Source of the DNA: Pecten maximus
Lineage: Eukaryota
DNA length: 64,000 nt
Reading direction: 5' to 3'
Assembly (NCBI RefSeq): GCF_902652985.1
Contig: NC_047022.1
Coordinates: 17,298,001 to 17,362,000 of the forward strand
Shown here: piece after piece, positions 23,001-32,000 of the stretch
How positions within the stretch are numbered: the first letter of the stretch is position 1
How the letters are laid out: every line of letters starts with the position of its first letter
Program-made: the position numbers

Positions 23001-26000
23001 ATGCAAATATGTCCAATACAGTTTAATGAAACTGCTATTGGCCTGTAATAAGCCGTTGCTTTGAGTTTAGGTTTTGTATATTTTATCCTCTTCCCTCCAT
23101 TGAGAAAGATTTTGTTTTAGACCCACTGGGCTTATCGCAGGACAGTTACTGTAATATGCAATATTTAAAACCTCCCTTTTGTATTTTTGTAGGATATTTC
23201 TGTGTCTGTTTGCTGGTGGTCAGCCACAACAGTTACCAAAGGGACTGGGAACAGAGGTTGGCAGTAGTCAGGGACAACAGATCGACTTCAACACCAAAAG
23301 GTAAAGTTATACAGTTATACAGCTAAACTGAACAAGCTTGAAAGCTGGAGGCCAGATACCTCAAATGGTTGGAGCATCCGTCTAGAGTTTGGAGGTCCGG
23401 GTTTATGCCCTGGTCTGGTCGTTGTAGTTTTGACTCTCCTGTTACGTTATGCATCCAACTTAATACCCATGGAAAGTGATATACGGTCTTGTGTGTGTCT
23501 TTGGGGTTGAAGACCTTGTTGAATGAGGGAGGAATGCAGTGGAATTGGTCTGGGCTAAACACCAGTGGCCAGGTAGCTGAAGTGGTTGGAGTTCAGAAGT
23601 TCCAGGCTGAAGTCCTGGTCTGGTTGTTACAGTTTCCCTCTCCTGTTACACAAACTTTTATTTTTTTTACAACCATAATGACAAAACATGCCATTGGCAA
23701 TTACAAGGTATTATCCTGAAGGGTATTTAAAGCTGTAGATTAACTGCCTTCATATACATGTAGTTTGTTATTTTCGCTGACTTTTTACAATACAACTGTG
23801 TCACCCTAAAGATTCCACAGAGCCATGGGTTTTATGTACAAACATTTAGTGTCTATGCAGATATTTGTTTTCTAAACTGAGCTTATAGCAAAATATATTG
23901 GTTATACATTAATATCAAAAAATGATTCTCAGCTTCAAATCTTGAGAAAATATAAGTCTTCAGATCGAACAGCAGTAATAGTTTTAAATGAAATTATAAA
24001 AAAAAATATTTCAGGGAGAGGATGAAGAAACTGCGAGGTGCCAAATCTGCAAAGGGAAGCAGAGATTGGATCCTGGAGAAGAAAGAGCGTCGGCGAAGAC
24101 AGGGGAGGTAAGTCATGGAGAAGTATCGTAACAGCAGTATGTGGCAGAACTTTACACCCCTCCCTGATCATAGCTTTTATCTGTTGTTAAGAAGTGAAAT
24201 AGACAAATAGTATCAGTGAAAAATATGTTAATTAATATCTGTAAACTAGGGCATCTTCAATATAATTACCGAAGTGTTATCTTGGAGTATTGGTCATCAC
24301 AATGTTCGAGTACATGGGTCGGTTCATTACAGACAGAAAGTCCAGGACAACTAGTAGCTACACCCCCTTTGCAAAAAAGTATTACTCCTATTAAGTGTTC
24401 AGTGCCACTTCTTCTTATCAATTCTTCTAAAACTGATCTCCCCTTGATTGGATATTGAGCTAAAATTTATGTGATTTTAAAATCTTAATCATTAATTTTT
24501 ATAGCAACATAGCGAGAATAATCATTGTAAAGGTCTATTTTTTGTGTCTTTATTACAGAGAAGTCCGACCAGATACCAAGTACACTGCAAGGAAGAGGAA
24601 GGTCAAGTTTTAGCGTTGTAACTTATTACTCTGTACTTTGTGTATATAAAATATTGTTTTGTTATTATTAAATTCAAATATGTCAAATGGATTTTTCAAG
24701 TTTTGTTTTGATGTTAAAATGAGACAAAATTTGTAGTAAAGAAAAAGTAGTATCCAGACGGCAAGAGGACCAGCACATAGCAGGGCATTATACGAGGTGT
24801 TTATGGGAGGAAAGTACATTTCTCTTACTCTGGACAGGTGTAATTTCCTTATCACAGATTGCAGGAGGCTGGATGGAGTTGTTTCCTGATTGGAGACTTT
24901 CAGATCAATTCTTTCAGAAAAGCTTCTTAAATCCAGTAATTTGAAAAAAAATTTTGGAGGTATTTTAATTGGAAATCAGATTTAAATACCCTGGCCAGGA
25001 ATAAGACATTGTTTTTCTGTCGGTGCAAAGTGTTTAAAGCTTGTTACATGATTCACTCGATTTTACCAATTTTTTTTCTTCAGATTTTGTCACATGGTTA
25101 AAATCTGCAGCAGTCACAACAACAAAGTACAGTTTATCTTTATCAGAAGGCAAACTTTCACGACTCTCTCAACAATGTGTCTCAAAATATTCACTTGAAA
25201 ACTGGGACTAGATGCCGTCCTTATGATAATAAAAATACAAACAATGACGGACAAACTACATTTATTAGTACATGAATATGTATTTAACATTGTACAATGC
25301 AGAAAATATTGATATATATTCAGAGGTTTAAAATGTTAGATAACAGATAAAAATGTTATGTTTTATAAACTCAGGTTAATCATAGTTAAACTGTTGACAT
25401 TAAAGAGACCAGAGATTTTTTATCAGACATTTCGTAACATCACAAAAAAAACAAGTTTTTCATCCATTTTGATTCTGCAAGTGATGAATAATCCGGAATG
25501 GCCACGGCAGAAGAAAAACAGCTCTGAAATATAATCAGCTTCTGTGTTTGACACTGCTACGATTCATCTGAGGTAATTACACTTTCTCAGTATTCTCTGA
25601 CCAGAAACCAAAGGTTATTTCTTTTTCTAGAAGCAGTAAGCACTTCAATATGAGATTGCAGTCTTTCCCCTTCCAACTTCTTGCTGTGTAAATCGATGAA
25701 ATGAATAATGGCAAATGTAAAGCCGTCATCACCTAAAAGGTTTTACTTTTCTAGCTCGTTGACTGACATGAGCAGGGCTAGCTCCATCGAAAGTTAACAT
25801 TCAGCACTGCTGCACCTCGACAGAAATTAAAAGTCATCATCGTCGTCTGGCAAGGAGATGTTTTTGGCCTGTTATCAGAAATAAAATTACAGATATACAA
25901 TATGATAATTATGGCTCAATATTCAAAAAGTGAATATTCCATATCTATAAAATTATTGTTAGAGGAATATATCCTCTTTCATCATGCCTTCCCGTAAAAC

Positions 26001-29000: not shown

Positions 29001-32000
29001 GACTGTGGGCTCGGAATAGCACCCAGTCCCTGTGATCTTTTGTAATGTATGGACTGTTGGTTGGGAATAGCACCCAGTCCCTGTGATATTTTGTAATATA
29101 TGGACTGTGGGTTGGGAAAAGCACCCAGTCCCTGTGATATTTTGTAATATATGGACTGTGGGCTCGGAATAGCACCCGGTCCCTGTGATCTTTTGTAATA
29201 TATGGACTGTGGGTTGGGAATAGCACCCAGTCCCTGTGATATTTTGTAATATATGGACTGTTGGTTGGGAATCGCACCCAGTCCCTGTGATATTTTGTAA
29301 TATATGGACTGTGGGTTGGGAATAGCACCCAGTCCCTGTGATATTTTGTAATATATGGACTGTTGGTTGGGAATCACATCCAGTCCCTGTGATATTTTGT
29401 AATACATGGACTGTTGGTAGGGAATAGCACCCAGTCCCTGTGATATTTTGTAATACATGGACTGTTGGTTGGGAATCACACCCAATCCCTGTGATATTTT
29501 GTAATACATGGACTGTTGGTTGGGAATAGCACCCAGTCCCTGTGATATTTTGTAATACATGGACTGTTGGTTGGGAATAGCACCCAGTCCCTGTGATATT
29601 TTGTAATACATGGACTGTTGGTTGGGAATCACACCCAATCCCTGTGATATTTTGTAATATATGGACTGTTGGTTGGGAATCACACCCAATCCCTGTGATA
29701 TTTTGTAATACATGGACTGTTGGTAGGGAATAGCACCCAGTCCCTGTGATATTTTGTAATACATGGACTGTTGGTTGGGAATCACATCCAGTCCCTGTGA
29801 TATTTTGTAATACATGGACTGTTGGTAGGGAATAGCACCCAGTCCCTGTGATATTTTGTAATATATGGACTGTTGGTTGGGAATCACACCCAATCCCTGT
29901 GATCCTTTGTAATATATGGACTGTTGGTTGGGAATCACACCCAGTCCCTGTGATATTTTGTAATACATGGACTGTTGGTTGGGAATCACACCCAATCCCT
30001 GTGATATTTTGTAATACATGGACTGTTGGTAGGGAATAGCACCCAGTCCCTGTGATATTTTGTAATACATGGACTGTTGGTTGGGAATCACATCCAGTCC
30101 CTGTGATATTTTGTAATACATGGACTGTTGGTAGGGAATAGCACCCAGTCCCTGTGATATTTTGTAATATATGGACTGTTGGTTGGGAATCACACCCAAT
30201 CCCTGTGATCCTTTGTAATATATGGACTGTTGGTTGGGAATCACACCCAGTCCCTGTGATATTTTGTAATACATGGACTGTTGGTTGGGAATCACACCCA
30301 ATCCCTGTGATCCTTTGTAATATATGGACTGTTGGTTGGGAATCACACCCAGTCCCTGTGATATTTTGTAATACATGGACTGTTGGTTGGGAATCACACC
30401 CAGTCTCTGTGATATTTTGTGTTGCGTTGTCTTTACCTTGTATGTAATATCCATCTCTCAGACGTCCATATTTCTCCTGCCCTGCAGTATCCCACACATC
30501 AAACTGAATTTCACCGCGGGTCGTGTAAAACTTCATTGGATGTACCTCAGCACCGATAGTAGCTACAAAACAATGATTATCCCGGATACAATATACATGT
30601 CACCCTGTGATGAAGAAGATTGTCCATAGCGTGAAAGGTATTGATGAGAAGGAGGAGGAGATATATATCAAAACATTTTGAAACTTATTTTCATAATGGT
30701 TAGGAGAAGGATTGTTTTGTTTTTATGGGTGAGGTGTATTGAGTCAATGAAGATGATGATACATGATGGTACCCATCCACATACAATATTCTAGGTGTGG
30801 AAGAAAATGTGTGTGTGGATCTTTATGTAATGTAAACAACTTCAAAATGTTTTTAAAATATATATGAAAAAAAAAAAAAAGGGGGGGGGGGTAAAAAAGA
30901 AATATCCTTGGGGAAAAAGAAAATAAGTAACTCTAAACCACAATACACTGAGAAATTGCTGCAATGTTCCTTCATGAATCACATAGTGTAGTATAATATA
31001 ATATAATGATATGTAAACAATGTTTATCCTCATTTTTTTCGCTGCCAATAGTTAAAATGCTTCTATTGTGTGTGCTTGTAGATACTGTGGTGCTTATGAG
31101 GTCAAATACAGTATACGACCTTGAGGTTGTTTAAAGTTCCTAGATTGCAGTATACAATAGTATATGTTAACTCAGAGCATTATTTAAATAATAGAATTAA
31201 GGTAATCTCGGGACCAAAATTTTTCGTTTTTTAATTATATTCTTTTAAAAATGTTGTGTACTGGAGACTTATTTCAGAATGAATACCCGATATATACAAG
31301 GTTTCACTTTACTGCACTCCCGCTTACCTATATACTTCTTTTCAAATTCTCCAGTCAAATGGCGTTTCACAAAAGTTGTTTTTCCAACGCCACCATCACC
31401 CACTACGATCAGCTTTAAATGTAAACAAGAAAATTAAAATAAGTGTCTACAAATCTTCAATTTCTATTGAAATTAACACAGATATAATAACAACACAGTT
31501 GGTCAAGACTTTCCTTTTTTTGTTTATCTGCCATGTTTCATATTGTTCCATTAACAATGAAAAAAAGTTACATCGTATATATCACAGGGGCTTGGCACGA
31601 TTTTCCAAATGATAGTCTATATATATATGTATATGTATAAATTATTTTTTTTAAAATACGTTCGTCTTCCCCCTCTTTGTAGTTACTACCCTTGATACTA
31701 TATACATATATATATGGACTATCATTTGGAAAATCGTGCCAAGCCCCTGTGGTATATATATACATACAGATTTCTGGTGAAATACATTGAGGATTCAATG
31801 GAGCACAGAGGTTCGTTACAAATGATATGATATCGCTAAATGTACAGCCCCTCTCATATATCATACCATTTGTATATATATAACGAACCCTGTGAATTCA
31901 TTTGTTTTTAGTTTTTTTTTTATATACATGCTTACCTTAAATTTGGGAACTGTCGGTGTAGCCATGCCCTTTATCTTTATGAAACAAAATTCTTACTACG

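What the first reader, a model, noticed from the sequence alone, without database searches (positions are those of the whole stretch)
25827..31965. Intact tandem Ran duplicate with substitutions in normally invariant switch and partner-binding residues
Seen: same six-exon structure as the neighbouring Ran, with no stops or frameshifts. Changes (human numbering): L43I and V45A in switch I; F72Y and G74R in switch II; N103D, H105Y, K132P, V137R; basic patch HRKK to HRKH; F157Y; and a remodelled C-terminal linker [10 protein letters not shown] with 2 extra residues. Both copies share T21V and V177A, suggesting a lineage-specific duplication. Established: Ran is extremely conserved. Fast-evolving testis-expressed Ran duplicates are known in Drosophila (Ran-like) and mouse (Rasl2-9), and nuclear transport is implicated in segregation distortion. 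Inference: a neofunctionalised, possibly germline-specific Ran with altered NTF2, karyopherin or RCC1 interactions.
Basis: partly seen in the sequence, partly recalled or inferred. Interest (0 to 1): 0.7.

Follow-up and report, generated by a model that had tools for sequence, protein, structure and literature searches.

The report
Diverged second Ran gene in scallops
Next to its ordinary Ran gene the king scallop carries an old, intact second copy, kept in other scallops too, whose regulator-binding surfaces have changed; it is a lineage-specific variant of a nuclear-transport switch that is usually almost invariant.

Summary
Window 25827-31965 (minus strand) is an intact six-exon, 215-codon Ran gene (copy B). 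It lies 4.5 kb downstream of a canonical Ran (copy A, 36426-40676) with the same intron phases. It equals the RefSeq model 'ran-1-like [Pecten maximus]'.

It is not a young duplicate or a pseudogene:
- Synonymous sites between A and B are saturated (pS 0.86, pN 0.13).
- No intron similarity is left.
- B-type orthologues, 85-87% identical, exist in Argopecten, Mizuhopecten and Ylistrum, plus one unnamed record. They form a 100/99 clade on a long stem.
- Almost all A/B differences arose on the B side (25-28 against 1-2 with animal outgroups).

All nucleotide-binding and catalytic residues are kept. The clade-fixed changes include G74R, K142H and K132P, at sites invariant in 54-55 of 55 named Rans. 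Others are V45A, N103D, H105Y and K99R, a remodelled C-terminal latch and a new linker cysteine. Residues 71/72, which published work ties to NTF2 binding, vary within the clade.

Best reading: a selectively maintained Ran paralogue with re-specified coupling to GEF, NTF2, karyopherins and its own C-terminus. Germline specificity is untested. The slow evolution after the initial burst argues against a Drosophila-style arms race. I class it as a new member of a known kind, of moderate interest.

The parts
31936..31965 (-). Copy B exon 1 (coding part): ATG plus 9 codons, MATPTVPKFK, donor GT
   Evidence: It is a substring of P0001 at position 1.
31328..31412 (-). Copy B exon 2, 85 nt: P-loop GDGGVGKT, switch I up to Y39/I40. 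It ends with 1 nt of a split codon.
   Evidence: It has the same length and phase as exon 2 of copy A.
30437..30562 (-). Copy B exon 3, 126 nt: human residues 41-83. It carries T42, DTAGQ with Q69, and switch II with Y72 and R74.
   Evidence: (PDB Ran chains 42-82, E 2.6e-17).
27490..27677 (-). Copy B exon 4, 188 nt: human residues 83-145. It carries helix alpha3 (R99, D103, Y105), NKVD, P132, L135, R137 and the basic patch HRKH.
   Evidence: (Ran/Gsp1 chains, E about 2e-30).
26261..26437 (-). Copy B exon 5, 177 nt: the SAK motif, Y157, Q167, Q173, the remodelled linker [10 protein letters not shown] and the C-terminal helix.
   Evidence: Ran chains 146-201, E 2e-18; 100% to P0001.
25827..25868 (-). 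Copy B exon 6: AKNISLPDDDDDF plus TAA (acidic tail).
36426..40676 (-). Copy A, the canonical Ran and parental-type neighbour. It has six exons (40676-40644, 40245-40161, 39190-39065, 38385-38198, 37755-37585, 36473-36426) and 216 codons. Its stop lies 4460 nt upstream of the ATG of copy B.
   Evidence: Exons 3-6 are 162/175 identical to Mizuhopecten Ran P0134.
28371..30420 (-). 51-bp minisatellite, 40.2 copies, filling most of copy B's intron 3. It is not coding in the annotated model.
   Evidence: The open frame contiguous with exon 3 is shown.

Best explanation
Copy B is a functional, selectively maintained paralogue of the Ran GTPase (here 'B-type Ran').

ORIGIN. It arose by a DNA-level tandem duplication of the canonical Ran gene in or before the common ancestor of the sampled scallops. 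It went through one early episode of rapid, one-sided protein change and has been conserved since.

SHOWN. It still has everything needed to bind and hydrolyse GTP: the P-loop, T24, Y39, T42, DTAGQ with Q69, NKxD, SAK and an acidic tail.

INFERRED. The surfaces that couple Ran to its cycle have been re-specified:
- Switch II (G74R fixed; residues 71/72 free to vary). This is the NTF2 site and the site read by importin-beta-type receptors.
- Helix alpha3 (K99R, N103D, H105Y), on the RCC1/GEF face.
- The beta5-alpha4 region and the basic patch (K132P, S135L, V137K/R, K142H).
- The contacts that latch the C-terminus onto the G domain in the GDP state (E175, E186, P180 replaced by Cys, plus one inserted residue).

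The most likely consequence is a Ran that is charged, imported and released with different kinetics or partners than canonical Ran. It would depend less on RCC1 and NTF2 and would have a shifted GDP/GTP balance and localisation. It would serve a specialised cell type, stage or process alongside the housekeeping copy. Which process is not known.
For: INTACT AND ANNOTATED. Six exons, all introns GT..AG, no stops, equal to the RefSeq model P0001.

ANCIENT AND CONSTRAINED.
- Over 164 whole codons A and B differ at 33 residues, with pS 0.861 (saturated) and pN 0.128. Only 3 exon matches and no intron match are found by blastn.
- Orthologues are P0002 Argopecten, P0004 Mizuhopecten and P0005 Ylistrum (each 87% over full length) and unnamed P0006 (77%). 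Canonical Rans are 69-75% identical.
- The five B-types form a clade with support 100/99. The stem is 0.35-0.42 long and the pectinid end branches are 0.06-0.15.
- In G-domain exons 3+4, B differs at 8/103 residues between Pecten and Mizuhopecten. Canonical Ran differs at 4/103. A against B within Pecten differs at 24/103.

ONE-SIDED CHANGE. B-unique against A-unique changes are 28:2, 25:1 and 27:2 with the Pinctada, Owenia and Dermacentor outgroups (p about 1e-6).

CORE KEPT. T24, Y39, T42, Q69, N122, K123, D125 and K152 are present in 5/5 B-types. Pfam Ras scores 3e-48. Each exon matches solved Ran/Gsp1 chains best.

SIGNATURE.
- R74, H142, A45, D103, Y105, Q167 and Q173 are in 5/5 B-types. 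P132, R99, L135 and M50 are in the 4/4 named pectinids.
- Among canonical Rans: G74 55/55, K132 55/55, K142 54/55, V45 53/55, K99 50/55. D at position 103 is seen in 0/55.
- A linker Cys is in 5/5 B-types and in 0 of the 46 canonical rows that could be parsed.
- E186 is E or D in 54/55 canonical rows but M, V, T, S in the four pectinid B-types.

LITERATURE (passages read).
- Phe72 inserts into the NTF2 cavity, and the interface is switch II residues 65-78 (PMC3549806).
- K71R markedly reduces NTF2 binding. Ran K99R is more cytosolic. [quoted passage not shown]
- Yeast K101, which equals human K99 by the two-residue offset between Gsp1 and human chains, is in the GEF interface core. Mutations there, tested as K101R, cut GEF efficiency more than 40-fold (bioRxiv 10.1101/2020.01.04.893909).
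- The receptors' CRIME domain binds switch II (PMC4231977).
- E175/N55, E186/K152 and D200/K134 (or K132) hold the C-terminus on the G domain (PMC9885160).
- Destabilising that tail raises GTP preference and cytoplasmic localisation (PMC8607414).
Against: - There are no expression data, no biochemistry and no partner sequences. Every functional consequence is inferred from other species' Ran.
- Codon-level dN/dS among orthologues could not be computed, because no eukaryotic genome or CDS collection was available. Constraint within the clade therefore rests on protein identity and intact ORFs.
- Several changes are conservative or occur naturally in canonical Rans: L43I (I in 12/55), F157Y (Y in 7/55), H105Y (Y in 5/55), I117M, V96I and I126V. 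At yeast F159 (= human F157 by the same offset) the one aromatic replacement tested (F159W) behaved like wild type.
- With a yeast outgroup the asymmetry is weaker (19:10, p 0.095), because some B residues coincide with yeast residues.
- P0006 lacks four of the pectinid changes (it has K99, S132, S135 and N137), so these are not universal in the clade.
- The place of the clade among animal Rans is unresolved (13 of 19 inner branches open). An origin older than bivalves is therefore not excluded.
- The AlphaFold model was of low confidence and adds nothing.
Confidence: 0.6

Rival explanations
1. Expression-partitioned duplicate with essentially canonical biochemistry. The two copies would divide tissues or stages between them, and the amino-acid changes would be tolerated drift at the edges of interfaces.
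For: - All catalytic and nucleotide-binding residues are kept.
- Several changes are conservative or are seen in canonical Rans elsewhere.
- At yeast F159 (human F157) the aromatic substitution F159W was wild-type-like.
- The acidic tail and 3 of 4 basic-patch residues are retained.
Against: - The changes hit sites invariant in 54-55 of 55 named Rans from animals, fungi and protists (G74, K132, K142), and they are then fixed across the clade.
- K99R and K71R are reported to change GEF kinetics, localisation or NTF2 binding.
- The change is concentrated on one early branch and on one copy only. This is not what steady drift gives.
Confidence: 0.17
2. Conflict-driven germline Ran, as proposed for Drosophila Ran-like: a testis-expressed copy evolving in an arms race with meiotic drivers.
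For: - Nuclear-transport duplicates in Drosophila are testis-enriched and are linked to drive (PMC8645118, passages).
- A diverged Drosophila pseudotakahashii Ran-family protein (P0090) shares Y105, the loss of K142 and a non-Phe at position 72 with the scallop B-type. These sites lie outside the exon used to find it.
- The long stem branch is compatible with a burst of positive selection.
Against: - The Drosophila copies are mostly retrogenes with high turnover. The paper reports 13 independent duplications, at least 13 pseudogenes and omega about 0.47-0.52.
- The scallop gene is a DNA-level tandem copy with all introns.
- It was found intact in each of the four named scallop species that gave a B-type hit, and is 85-87% identical among them.
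- No expression data are available.
Confidence: 0.12
3. Decaying or young pseudogene, or an assembly or haplotype artefact.
Against: - The ORF and splice sites are intact.
- pS is saturated while pN is 0.13.
- Orthologues with intact ORFs exist in three other named genera.
- The two copies differ at 55 of 175 compared residues in exons 3-6, so they are not haplotypes.
Confidence: 0.02

Closest known systems
Canonical Ran / yeast Gsp1 (copy A in this window; solved human, dog and yeast structures)
   Same: - The fold family and all G motifs are the same.
- It has an acidic C-terminal tail and no CAAX box.
- Each exon's best PDB matches are Ran/Gsp1 chains.
- The intron positions and phases are those of the neighbouring canonical gene.
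   Different: - 55 of 175 residues differ from copy A in exons 3-6.
- There are clade-fixed changes at otherwise invariant G74, K132 and K142, and at V45, K99, N103 and H105.
- The linker is remodelled, with one inserted residue and a conserved Cys.
- E175 and E186, which published simulations place in the C-terminal latch, are lost.
Drosophila Ran-like duplicates (PMC8645118, passages read)
   Same: - It is a lineage-specific extra Ran copy that has diverged much more than its parent.
- Some of the same sites are changed in the one diverged Drosophila protein seen here (P0090: Y105, N142, L72, Y157, Q167, Q173).
   Different: - The Drosophila copies are almost all retrogenes (12 of 13 events RNA-mediated). 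They are often lost or pseudogenised, with omega about 0.5.
- The scallop copy is a tandem DNA duplicate with five introns. It is old and stably retained.
- Testis bias is known for flies and is untested here.
Mouse testis-specific Ran retrogene Rasl2-9 (recalled; no call found or read a paper on it. The term gave 0 occurrences in PMC8645118, and none of the 10 papers listed in the loose search held it)
   Same: It is a second Ran gene beside the housekeeping one.
   Different: From recall it is an intronless, very similar copy that differs mainly in expression. The scallop copy keeps its introns and differs at about 30% of residues.
Yeast GSP1/GSP2 pair (mentioned in PMC3549806)
   Same: Two Ran genes in one genome.
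   Different: In the passage read, both yeast proteins are conserved at the NTF2-binding Phe72 site. The scallop B-type clade varies there (Y, H, F, Y, Y) and carries R74.

Membership tests
Ran subfamily of Ras-like GTPases | G1-G5 nucleotide-binding motifs: P-loop GxxxxGKT, switch I Thr, DTAGQ with catalytic Gln, NKxD and SAK | tested here: met
   GDGGVGKT, T42, DTAGQ (Q69), NKVD and SAK are all present. T24, Y39, T42, Q69, N122, K123, D125 and K152 are in 5/5 B-types. Pfam Ras scores 3e-48.
Ran subfamily of Ras-like GTPases | Closest solved relatives are Ran/Gsp1, well separated from Rab and other families | tested here: met
   Exon 4: Ran/Gsp1 chains at E about 2e-30. The next hits are a 218-residue chain also named GSP1 (4djt) at 1.5e-9 and the first Rab at 2.5e-7. 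Exons 3 and 5: Ran chains at 2.6e-17 and 2e-18.
Ran subfamily of Ras-like GTPases | C-terminal extension ending in an acidic tail (DEDDDL-like), with no lipidation box at the C-terminus | tested here: met
   It ends in LPDDDDDF and has no CAAX. The extension aligns with canonical Rans. A conserved internal linker Cys is new. Whether it is modified was not testable.
Ran subfamily of Ras-like GTPases | Basic patch at residues 139-142 (HRKK) | tested here: inconclusive
   It reads HRKH. Three of four residues are kept. K142 is K in 54/55 named Rans but H in 5/5 B-types.
Ran subfamily of Ras-like GTPases | Works with RCC1, RanGAP, NTF2, RanBP1 and importin-beta-type receptors | not testable with these tools
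Drosophila-type Ran-like / retrogene Ran duplicates | Intronless retrocopy at a new locus | tested here: not met
   It has five GT..AG introns in the same phases as the neighbouring parent, and it lies in tandem 4460 nt downstream.
Drosophila-type Ran-like / retrogene Ran duplicates | Testis-enriched expression | not testable with these tools
   There is no expression resource. Literature searches found nothing on this gene.
Drosophila-type Ran-like / retrogene Ran duplicates | Persistently raised evolutionary rate and turnover (loss, pseudogenes) | tested here: inconclusive
   The stem branch is long (0.35-0.42). After that the rate is only about twice that of canonical Ran (26 against 13 differences per 175 residues). 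The ORF is intact in each of the four named species that gave a hit. Codon-level omega was not computable.
Processed or unprocessed pseudogene | Stops, frameshifts, broken splice sites, dN about equal to dS | tested here: not met
   None are present. pN is 0.128 against a saturated pS of 0.861.

The most novel reading that the evidence does not exclude
Scallops would run a second, partly insulated Ran system. The B-type Ran would have escaped the canonical NTF2 import and RCC1 charging loop (G74R, variable 71/72, K99R/N103D/H105Y). It would have a loosened C-terminal latch. It would carry a clade-conserved cysteine in the C-terminal linker that could be S-acylated or redox-sensitive. This would give a cytoplasmic or membrane-associated Ran activity, something Ran is held not to have. 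The partial overlap of changed sites with a diverged Drosophila Ran paralogue (Y105, loss of K142, non-Phe72) would then mark a convergent route by which Ran duplicates leave the housekeeping cycle.
Probability: 0.12. Interest if true: 0.7.

Novelty: new member of a known kind. Interest (0 to 1): 0.45.

Why it matters
Ran is among the most conserved eukaryotic proteins. A review read here states that mammals have a single Ran gene (PMC4905271).

A paralogue that natural selection has kept for a long time with Arg at G74, Pro at K132 and His at K142 is a natural experiment. It shows which parts of the Ran surface can be re-specified without losing the switch. It complements the mutational scans of yeast Gsp1.

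For scallop biology it flags a candidate specialised nuclear-transport or spindle factor. If its expression proves germline-restricted, it would extend the Drosophila pattern of duplicated transport genes to molluscs, by a different duplication mechanism.

If it is broadly expressed and biochemically ordinary, it is just one more lineage-specific paralogue.

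Tried and rejected
- STRUCTURE. AlphaFold2 on a 21-row alignment gave mean pLDDT 62.8 and pTM 0.58. That is too poor to use, so no fold search was run. The fold assignment rests on sequence matches to solved Ran chains.
- COMPLEX PREDICTION. Not run.
- CLUSTER MEMBERS. The listing of cluster members, wanted for accession numbers, could not be made because the database is switched off.
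- PAPERS NOT HELD. Two look-ups of the Ran acetylation paper, by a DOI and a PMC id that I recalled, were not held. I used the review PMC4905271 instead.
- LOOSE SEARCH. Paper search was set too loosely (103,247 papers) and gave nothing useful.
- DIVERGENCE TIMES. The passages I read in PMC11439060 give only the Argopecten irradians/purpuratus split, about 14 Myr. The age of the scallop genera split stays unquantified here.
- REFERENCE-GENE PAPER. PMC6460854 on scallop reference genes does not mention Ran.
- WHERE THE CLADE BRANCHES. The tree does not resolve where the B-type clade branches among animal Rans. I did not run an AU test because canonical Ran carries too little signal.
- SCRIPT ERROR. 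The script stopped with an error after the linker. Its printed rows were used, and the count was redone on 55 rows.
- REJECTED READINGS. Young pseudogene (saturated pS, orthologues). Haplotype or assembly duplicate (about 31% protein difference). Retrocopy (introns kept). F157Y and L43I as 'invariant-site' changes (both occur in canonical Rans).

Full report
WHAT IS THERE. The window has 35% G+C and no N. Between 25.8 and 40.7 kb it holds two Ran genes, head to tail on the minus strand. The DNA around each boundary gives for copy B, the finding, exons 31965-31936, 31412-31328, 30562-30437, 27677-27490, 26437-26261 and 25868-25827. For copy A it gives 40676-40644, 40245-40161, 39190-39065, 38385-38198, 37755-37585 and 36473-36426. 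All ten introns are GT..AG. Exons 2-4 have the same lengths and phases in both genes. Neither reading frame is interrupted. B encodes 215 residues and A 216. A's stop lies 4460 nt upstream of B's ATG. tblastn finds no third copy in the window. I never concatenated exons. Copy A was therefore analysed only per exon, and its full-length placement in a tree stays unchecked.

IDENTITY. The translation of B's exon 5 is 100% identical to a 215-residue database protein, P0001, named 'GTP-binding nuclear protein ran-1-like [Pecten maximus]'. All six of my exon peptides are exact, ordered substrings of it. The window is therefore king scallop, and copy B is already an automatic RefSeq model. Against solved structures, B's exons 3, 4 and 5 match Ran/Gsp1 chains at E 2.6e-17, about 2e-30 and 2e-18. 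They cover human residues 42-82, 84-145 and 146-201, which gives the numbering used here. The top hit for exon 3, chain 1qg4_A, itself has Tyr at position 72. From recall this is an engineered F72Y Ran.

I compared B with 55 named non-B Rans from animals, fungi and protists. These rows are a hand-picked subset: the hits that carried an organism or project name. Unnamed hits, tandem fusions and the bat record were left out. In this set G74 (55/55), K132 (55/55), K142 (54/55) and V45 (53/55) are truly invariant or nearly so. F72 (50/55), H105 (48/55), F157 (48/55) and N103 (44/55) are less so. V137 is not conserved at all. Val21 occurs in 8 of 54 named Rans, including a pearl oyster, an annelid, an ascidian and an orthonectid. 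Position 177 varies within the B clade. These two shared residues therefore do not date the duplication.

AGE AND SELECTION. I compared 164 whole codons: exons 2-4 plus the ungapped first 33 codons of exon 5, computed per exon and summed. Over these, A and B differ at 33 residues, with pS = 0.861 (beyond saturation) and pN = 0.128. blastn between the two gene regions finds only three exon matches (75-78% identity) and nothing in the introns. B-type orthologues were returned for Argopecten irradians (P0002), Mizuhopecten yessoensis (P0004, plus a shorter isoform P0003) and Ylistrum balloti (P0005). Each is 87% identical to P0001 over the full length. An unnamed record, P0006, is 77% identical. 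Canonical Rans of any kingdom are 69-75% identical. Ylistrum belongs to the Pectinidae, and Pecten, Argopecten and Mizuhopecten are listed as genera of that family.

In a maximum-likelihood tree of 22 rows the five B-types form one clade (100/99). Its stem is 0.35-0.42 changes per site and the pectinid end branches are 0.06-0.15. The clade's position among animal Rans is unresolved. Between Pecten and Mizuhopecten, canonical Ran differs at 13 of 175 residues in exons 3-6 and B-type Ran at 26 of 175. In the G-domain exons 3+4 the figures are 4 and 8 of 103, against 24 of 103 between A and B. I polarised the A/B differences with outgroups. This gives 28:2 (Pinctada), 25:1 (Owenia) and 27:2 (Dermacentor) changes on the B side against the A side, p about 1e-6. 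With a yeast outgroup the ratio is only 19:10 (p 0.095), because several B residues coincide with yeast ones. The Mizuhopecten canonical Ran (P0134) and the B-type (P0003, P0004) are reported on a contig of the same length, 1,704,129 bases. This suggests, but does not prove, that the tandem pair is conserved there. Taken together, the duplication is old, one copy changed quickly and early, and that copy has been under purifying selection since.

WHAT CHANGED AND WHAT DID NOT. All five B-types keep T24, Y39, T42, Q69, N122, K123, D125 and K152, and they keep an acidic tail. Fixed in all five, and absent or rare in canonical Rans, are A45, K51, R74, D103, Y105, H142, Q167 and Q173. Fixed in the four named pectinids are M50, R99, P132 and L135. 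P0006 has I, K, S and S at these four sites. Residues 71 and 72 are K53/R2 and F50/L3/Y2 in canonical Rans. In the C-terminal part, E175 (canonical E 42/55) is Q, Q, N, Y, L. E186 (E or D in 54/55) is M, V, T, S, D. The conserved Pro of the linker is replaced, and the four pectinid proteins have one extra linker residue there. Every B-type has a Cys in the linker, which none of the 46 parsable canonical rows has (9 of the 55 rows were not parsed by my pattern).

LIKELY MECHANISM (INFERRED). I read passages of the following papers.
- K71R markedly reduces NTF2 binding. Ran K99R is more cytosolic by an NTF2-independent route. [quoted passage not shown]
- In yeast Gsp1, whose numbering is human plus 2 (Gsp1 and human chains), K101 lies in the GEF interface core. 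Mutations there, tested as K101R, lower GEF-catalysed exchange efficiency more than 40-fold (bioRxiv 10.1101/2020.01.04.893909).
- The CRIME domain of importin-beta-type receptors binds switch II (PMC4231977).
- In simulations of Ran-GDP, the C-terminus is held on the G domain by E175/N55, F176/H53, E186/K152, D190/K127 and D200/K134. In one GTP-state run the D200 contact is with K132 (PMC9885160, section 3.2).
- Mutations that loosen this tail raise the preference for GTP and shift Ran to the cytoplasm (PMC8607414).

The B-type changes fall on exactly these elements. I therefore propose that B-type Ran is still a GTP switch, but that its charging by RCC1, its import by NTF2, its reading by karyopherins and RanBP1, and its own C-terminal autoinhibition are re-tuned. 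None of this was measured. On the other side, F157Y is probably harmless. At yeast F159 an aromatic replacement (F159W) behaved like wild type, whereas F159L did not (bioRxiv 10.1101/2022.04.13.488230). Tyr also occurs there in 7 of 55 canonical Rans.

COMPARISON WITH KNOWN CASES. Drosophila Ran has been duplicated 13 independent times. Twelve of these were through RNA, with testis-enriched expression, at least 13 pseudogenes, omega about 0.47-0.52 and a proposed link to meiotic drive (PMC8645118, passages). The scallop gene shares the theme of an extra, diverged Ran. It differs in mechanism (tandem DNA copy, introns kept), in stability (intact in each of the four named species that gave a hit) and in its present low rate. 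One diverged Drosophila pseudotakahashii Ran-family protein turned up in my exon-5 search (P0090). It shares Y105, the loss of K142 (N), a non-Phe at 72 (L), Y157, Q167 and Q173 with the B-type. The last three lie in the exon that selected it, so only the first three are free of ascertainment bias. It is a single comparator. I take it, by inference, to be one of the Ran-like duplicates. The mouse Rasl2-9 comparison rests on recall only.

IS IT IN PRINT? Three full-text searches were made. 'scallop' with 'GTP-binding nuclear protein Ran' gave 2 papers, of which I saw only the listing; by their titles they concern the mussel gill proteome and miRNA biogenesis. 'nuclear protein Ran-like' with 'scallop' gave 0 papers. 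'Ran GTPase' with 'duplicat' and 'bivalv' gave 4 papers, unrelated by their titles and abstract openings. So I found no description of this paralogue. Subscription journals and supplements were not searchable.

VERDICT. The gene is a real, old, constrained, diverged Ran paralogue of scallops, and a new member of the known kind 'lineage-specific diverged Ran duplicate'. Germline specificity and altered binding remain to be tested.

LEFT OPEN.
- Codon-level selection tests: no eukaryotic CDS collection was available.
- Expression.
- Presence in other bivalves: the word-indexed protein search is weak evidence for absence.
- The cluster look-up.
- Structure-based interface mapping: the model was poor and the supplements are closed.
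The closed collections (metagenome and viral contigs) do not bear on this eukaryotic gene.

Noticed in passing
window 28371-30420 (copy B intron 3); ORF 28755-30599 minus strand: A 51-bp minisatellite of 40.2 copies (91% matches) fills most of intron 3. Because 51 = 17 codons and the unit has no stop in that frame, the exon 3 frame stays open past the donor site for 614 residues. Intron retention would give a long repeat-tailed product.
   Followed up: partly
window 26794-27322 (copy B intron 4): A 41-bp tandem repeat of 13.1 copies, with nested 30- and 72-bp periods.
   Followed up: no
window 26261/25868 against 37585/36473 (the exon 5/6 boundaries of B and A): In the MAFFT alignment the exon 5/6 boundary lies one codon later in B than in A. 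This could be intron sliding, or an indel next to the splice site.
   Followed up: partly
window 10442-10972, minus strand: An open frame of 176 residues with a J-domain-like stretch (a ...KKYHPD... motif, recognised by eye), probably an exon of a DnaJ-family neighbour gene.
   Followed up: no
window 59244-60325, plus strand: Several overlapping open frames made of a repeated unit of about 15 residues (PGYTLHLDTPFTWIH-like). They coincide with the strongest GC skew in the window (-0.31 at 58-60 kb). This is probably another minisatellite.
   Followed up: no
window 13745-14110 and 16105-16377, minus strand: Two open frames with nearly the same translation (LA.GVV.RCNRKASNVSPPTSNRDPRLYCTAALPTELKGTNAMLEGN...). 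This indicates a dispersed repeat, probably a transposable element or SINE.
   Followed up: no
protein P0003 (Mizuhopecten yessoensis isoform X2): The shorter predicted isoform of the Mizuhopecten B-type gene lacks 22 residues at the end of exon 4, including the Asp of NKxD. It would probably not bind guanine nucleotide normally.
   Followed up: no
protein P0090 (Drosophila pseudotakahashii, 216 aa): A diverged Drosophila Ran-family protein shares Y105, the loss of K142, a non-Phe72, Y157, Q167 and Q173 with the scallop B-type. This hints at convergent change in independent Ran duplicates. It is a single comparator, partly selected by the search itself.
   Followed up: partly
proteins P0001, P0002, P0004, P0005, P0006 (C-terminal linker; window about 26320-26340 in copy B): A cysteine in the C-terminal linker is present in 5 of 5 B-type proteins and in 0 of 46 parsable canonical Rans. 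P. maximus and Ylistrum have two adjacent cysteines.
   Followed up: partly
copy B exons 3-4 against yeast Gsp1-type rows: Several B-type residues (I43, Y53, E58, D62, I96, V126) coincide with the yeast state rather than the animal state. This weakens the relative-rate test with a yeast outgroup (19:10).
   Followed up: no
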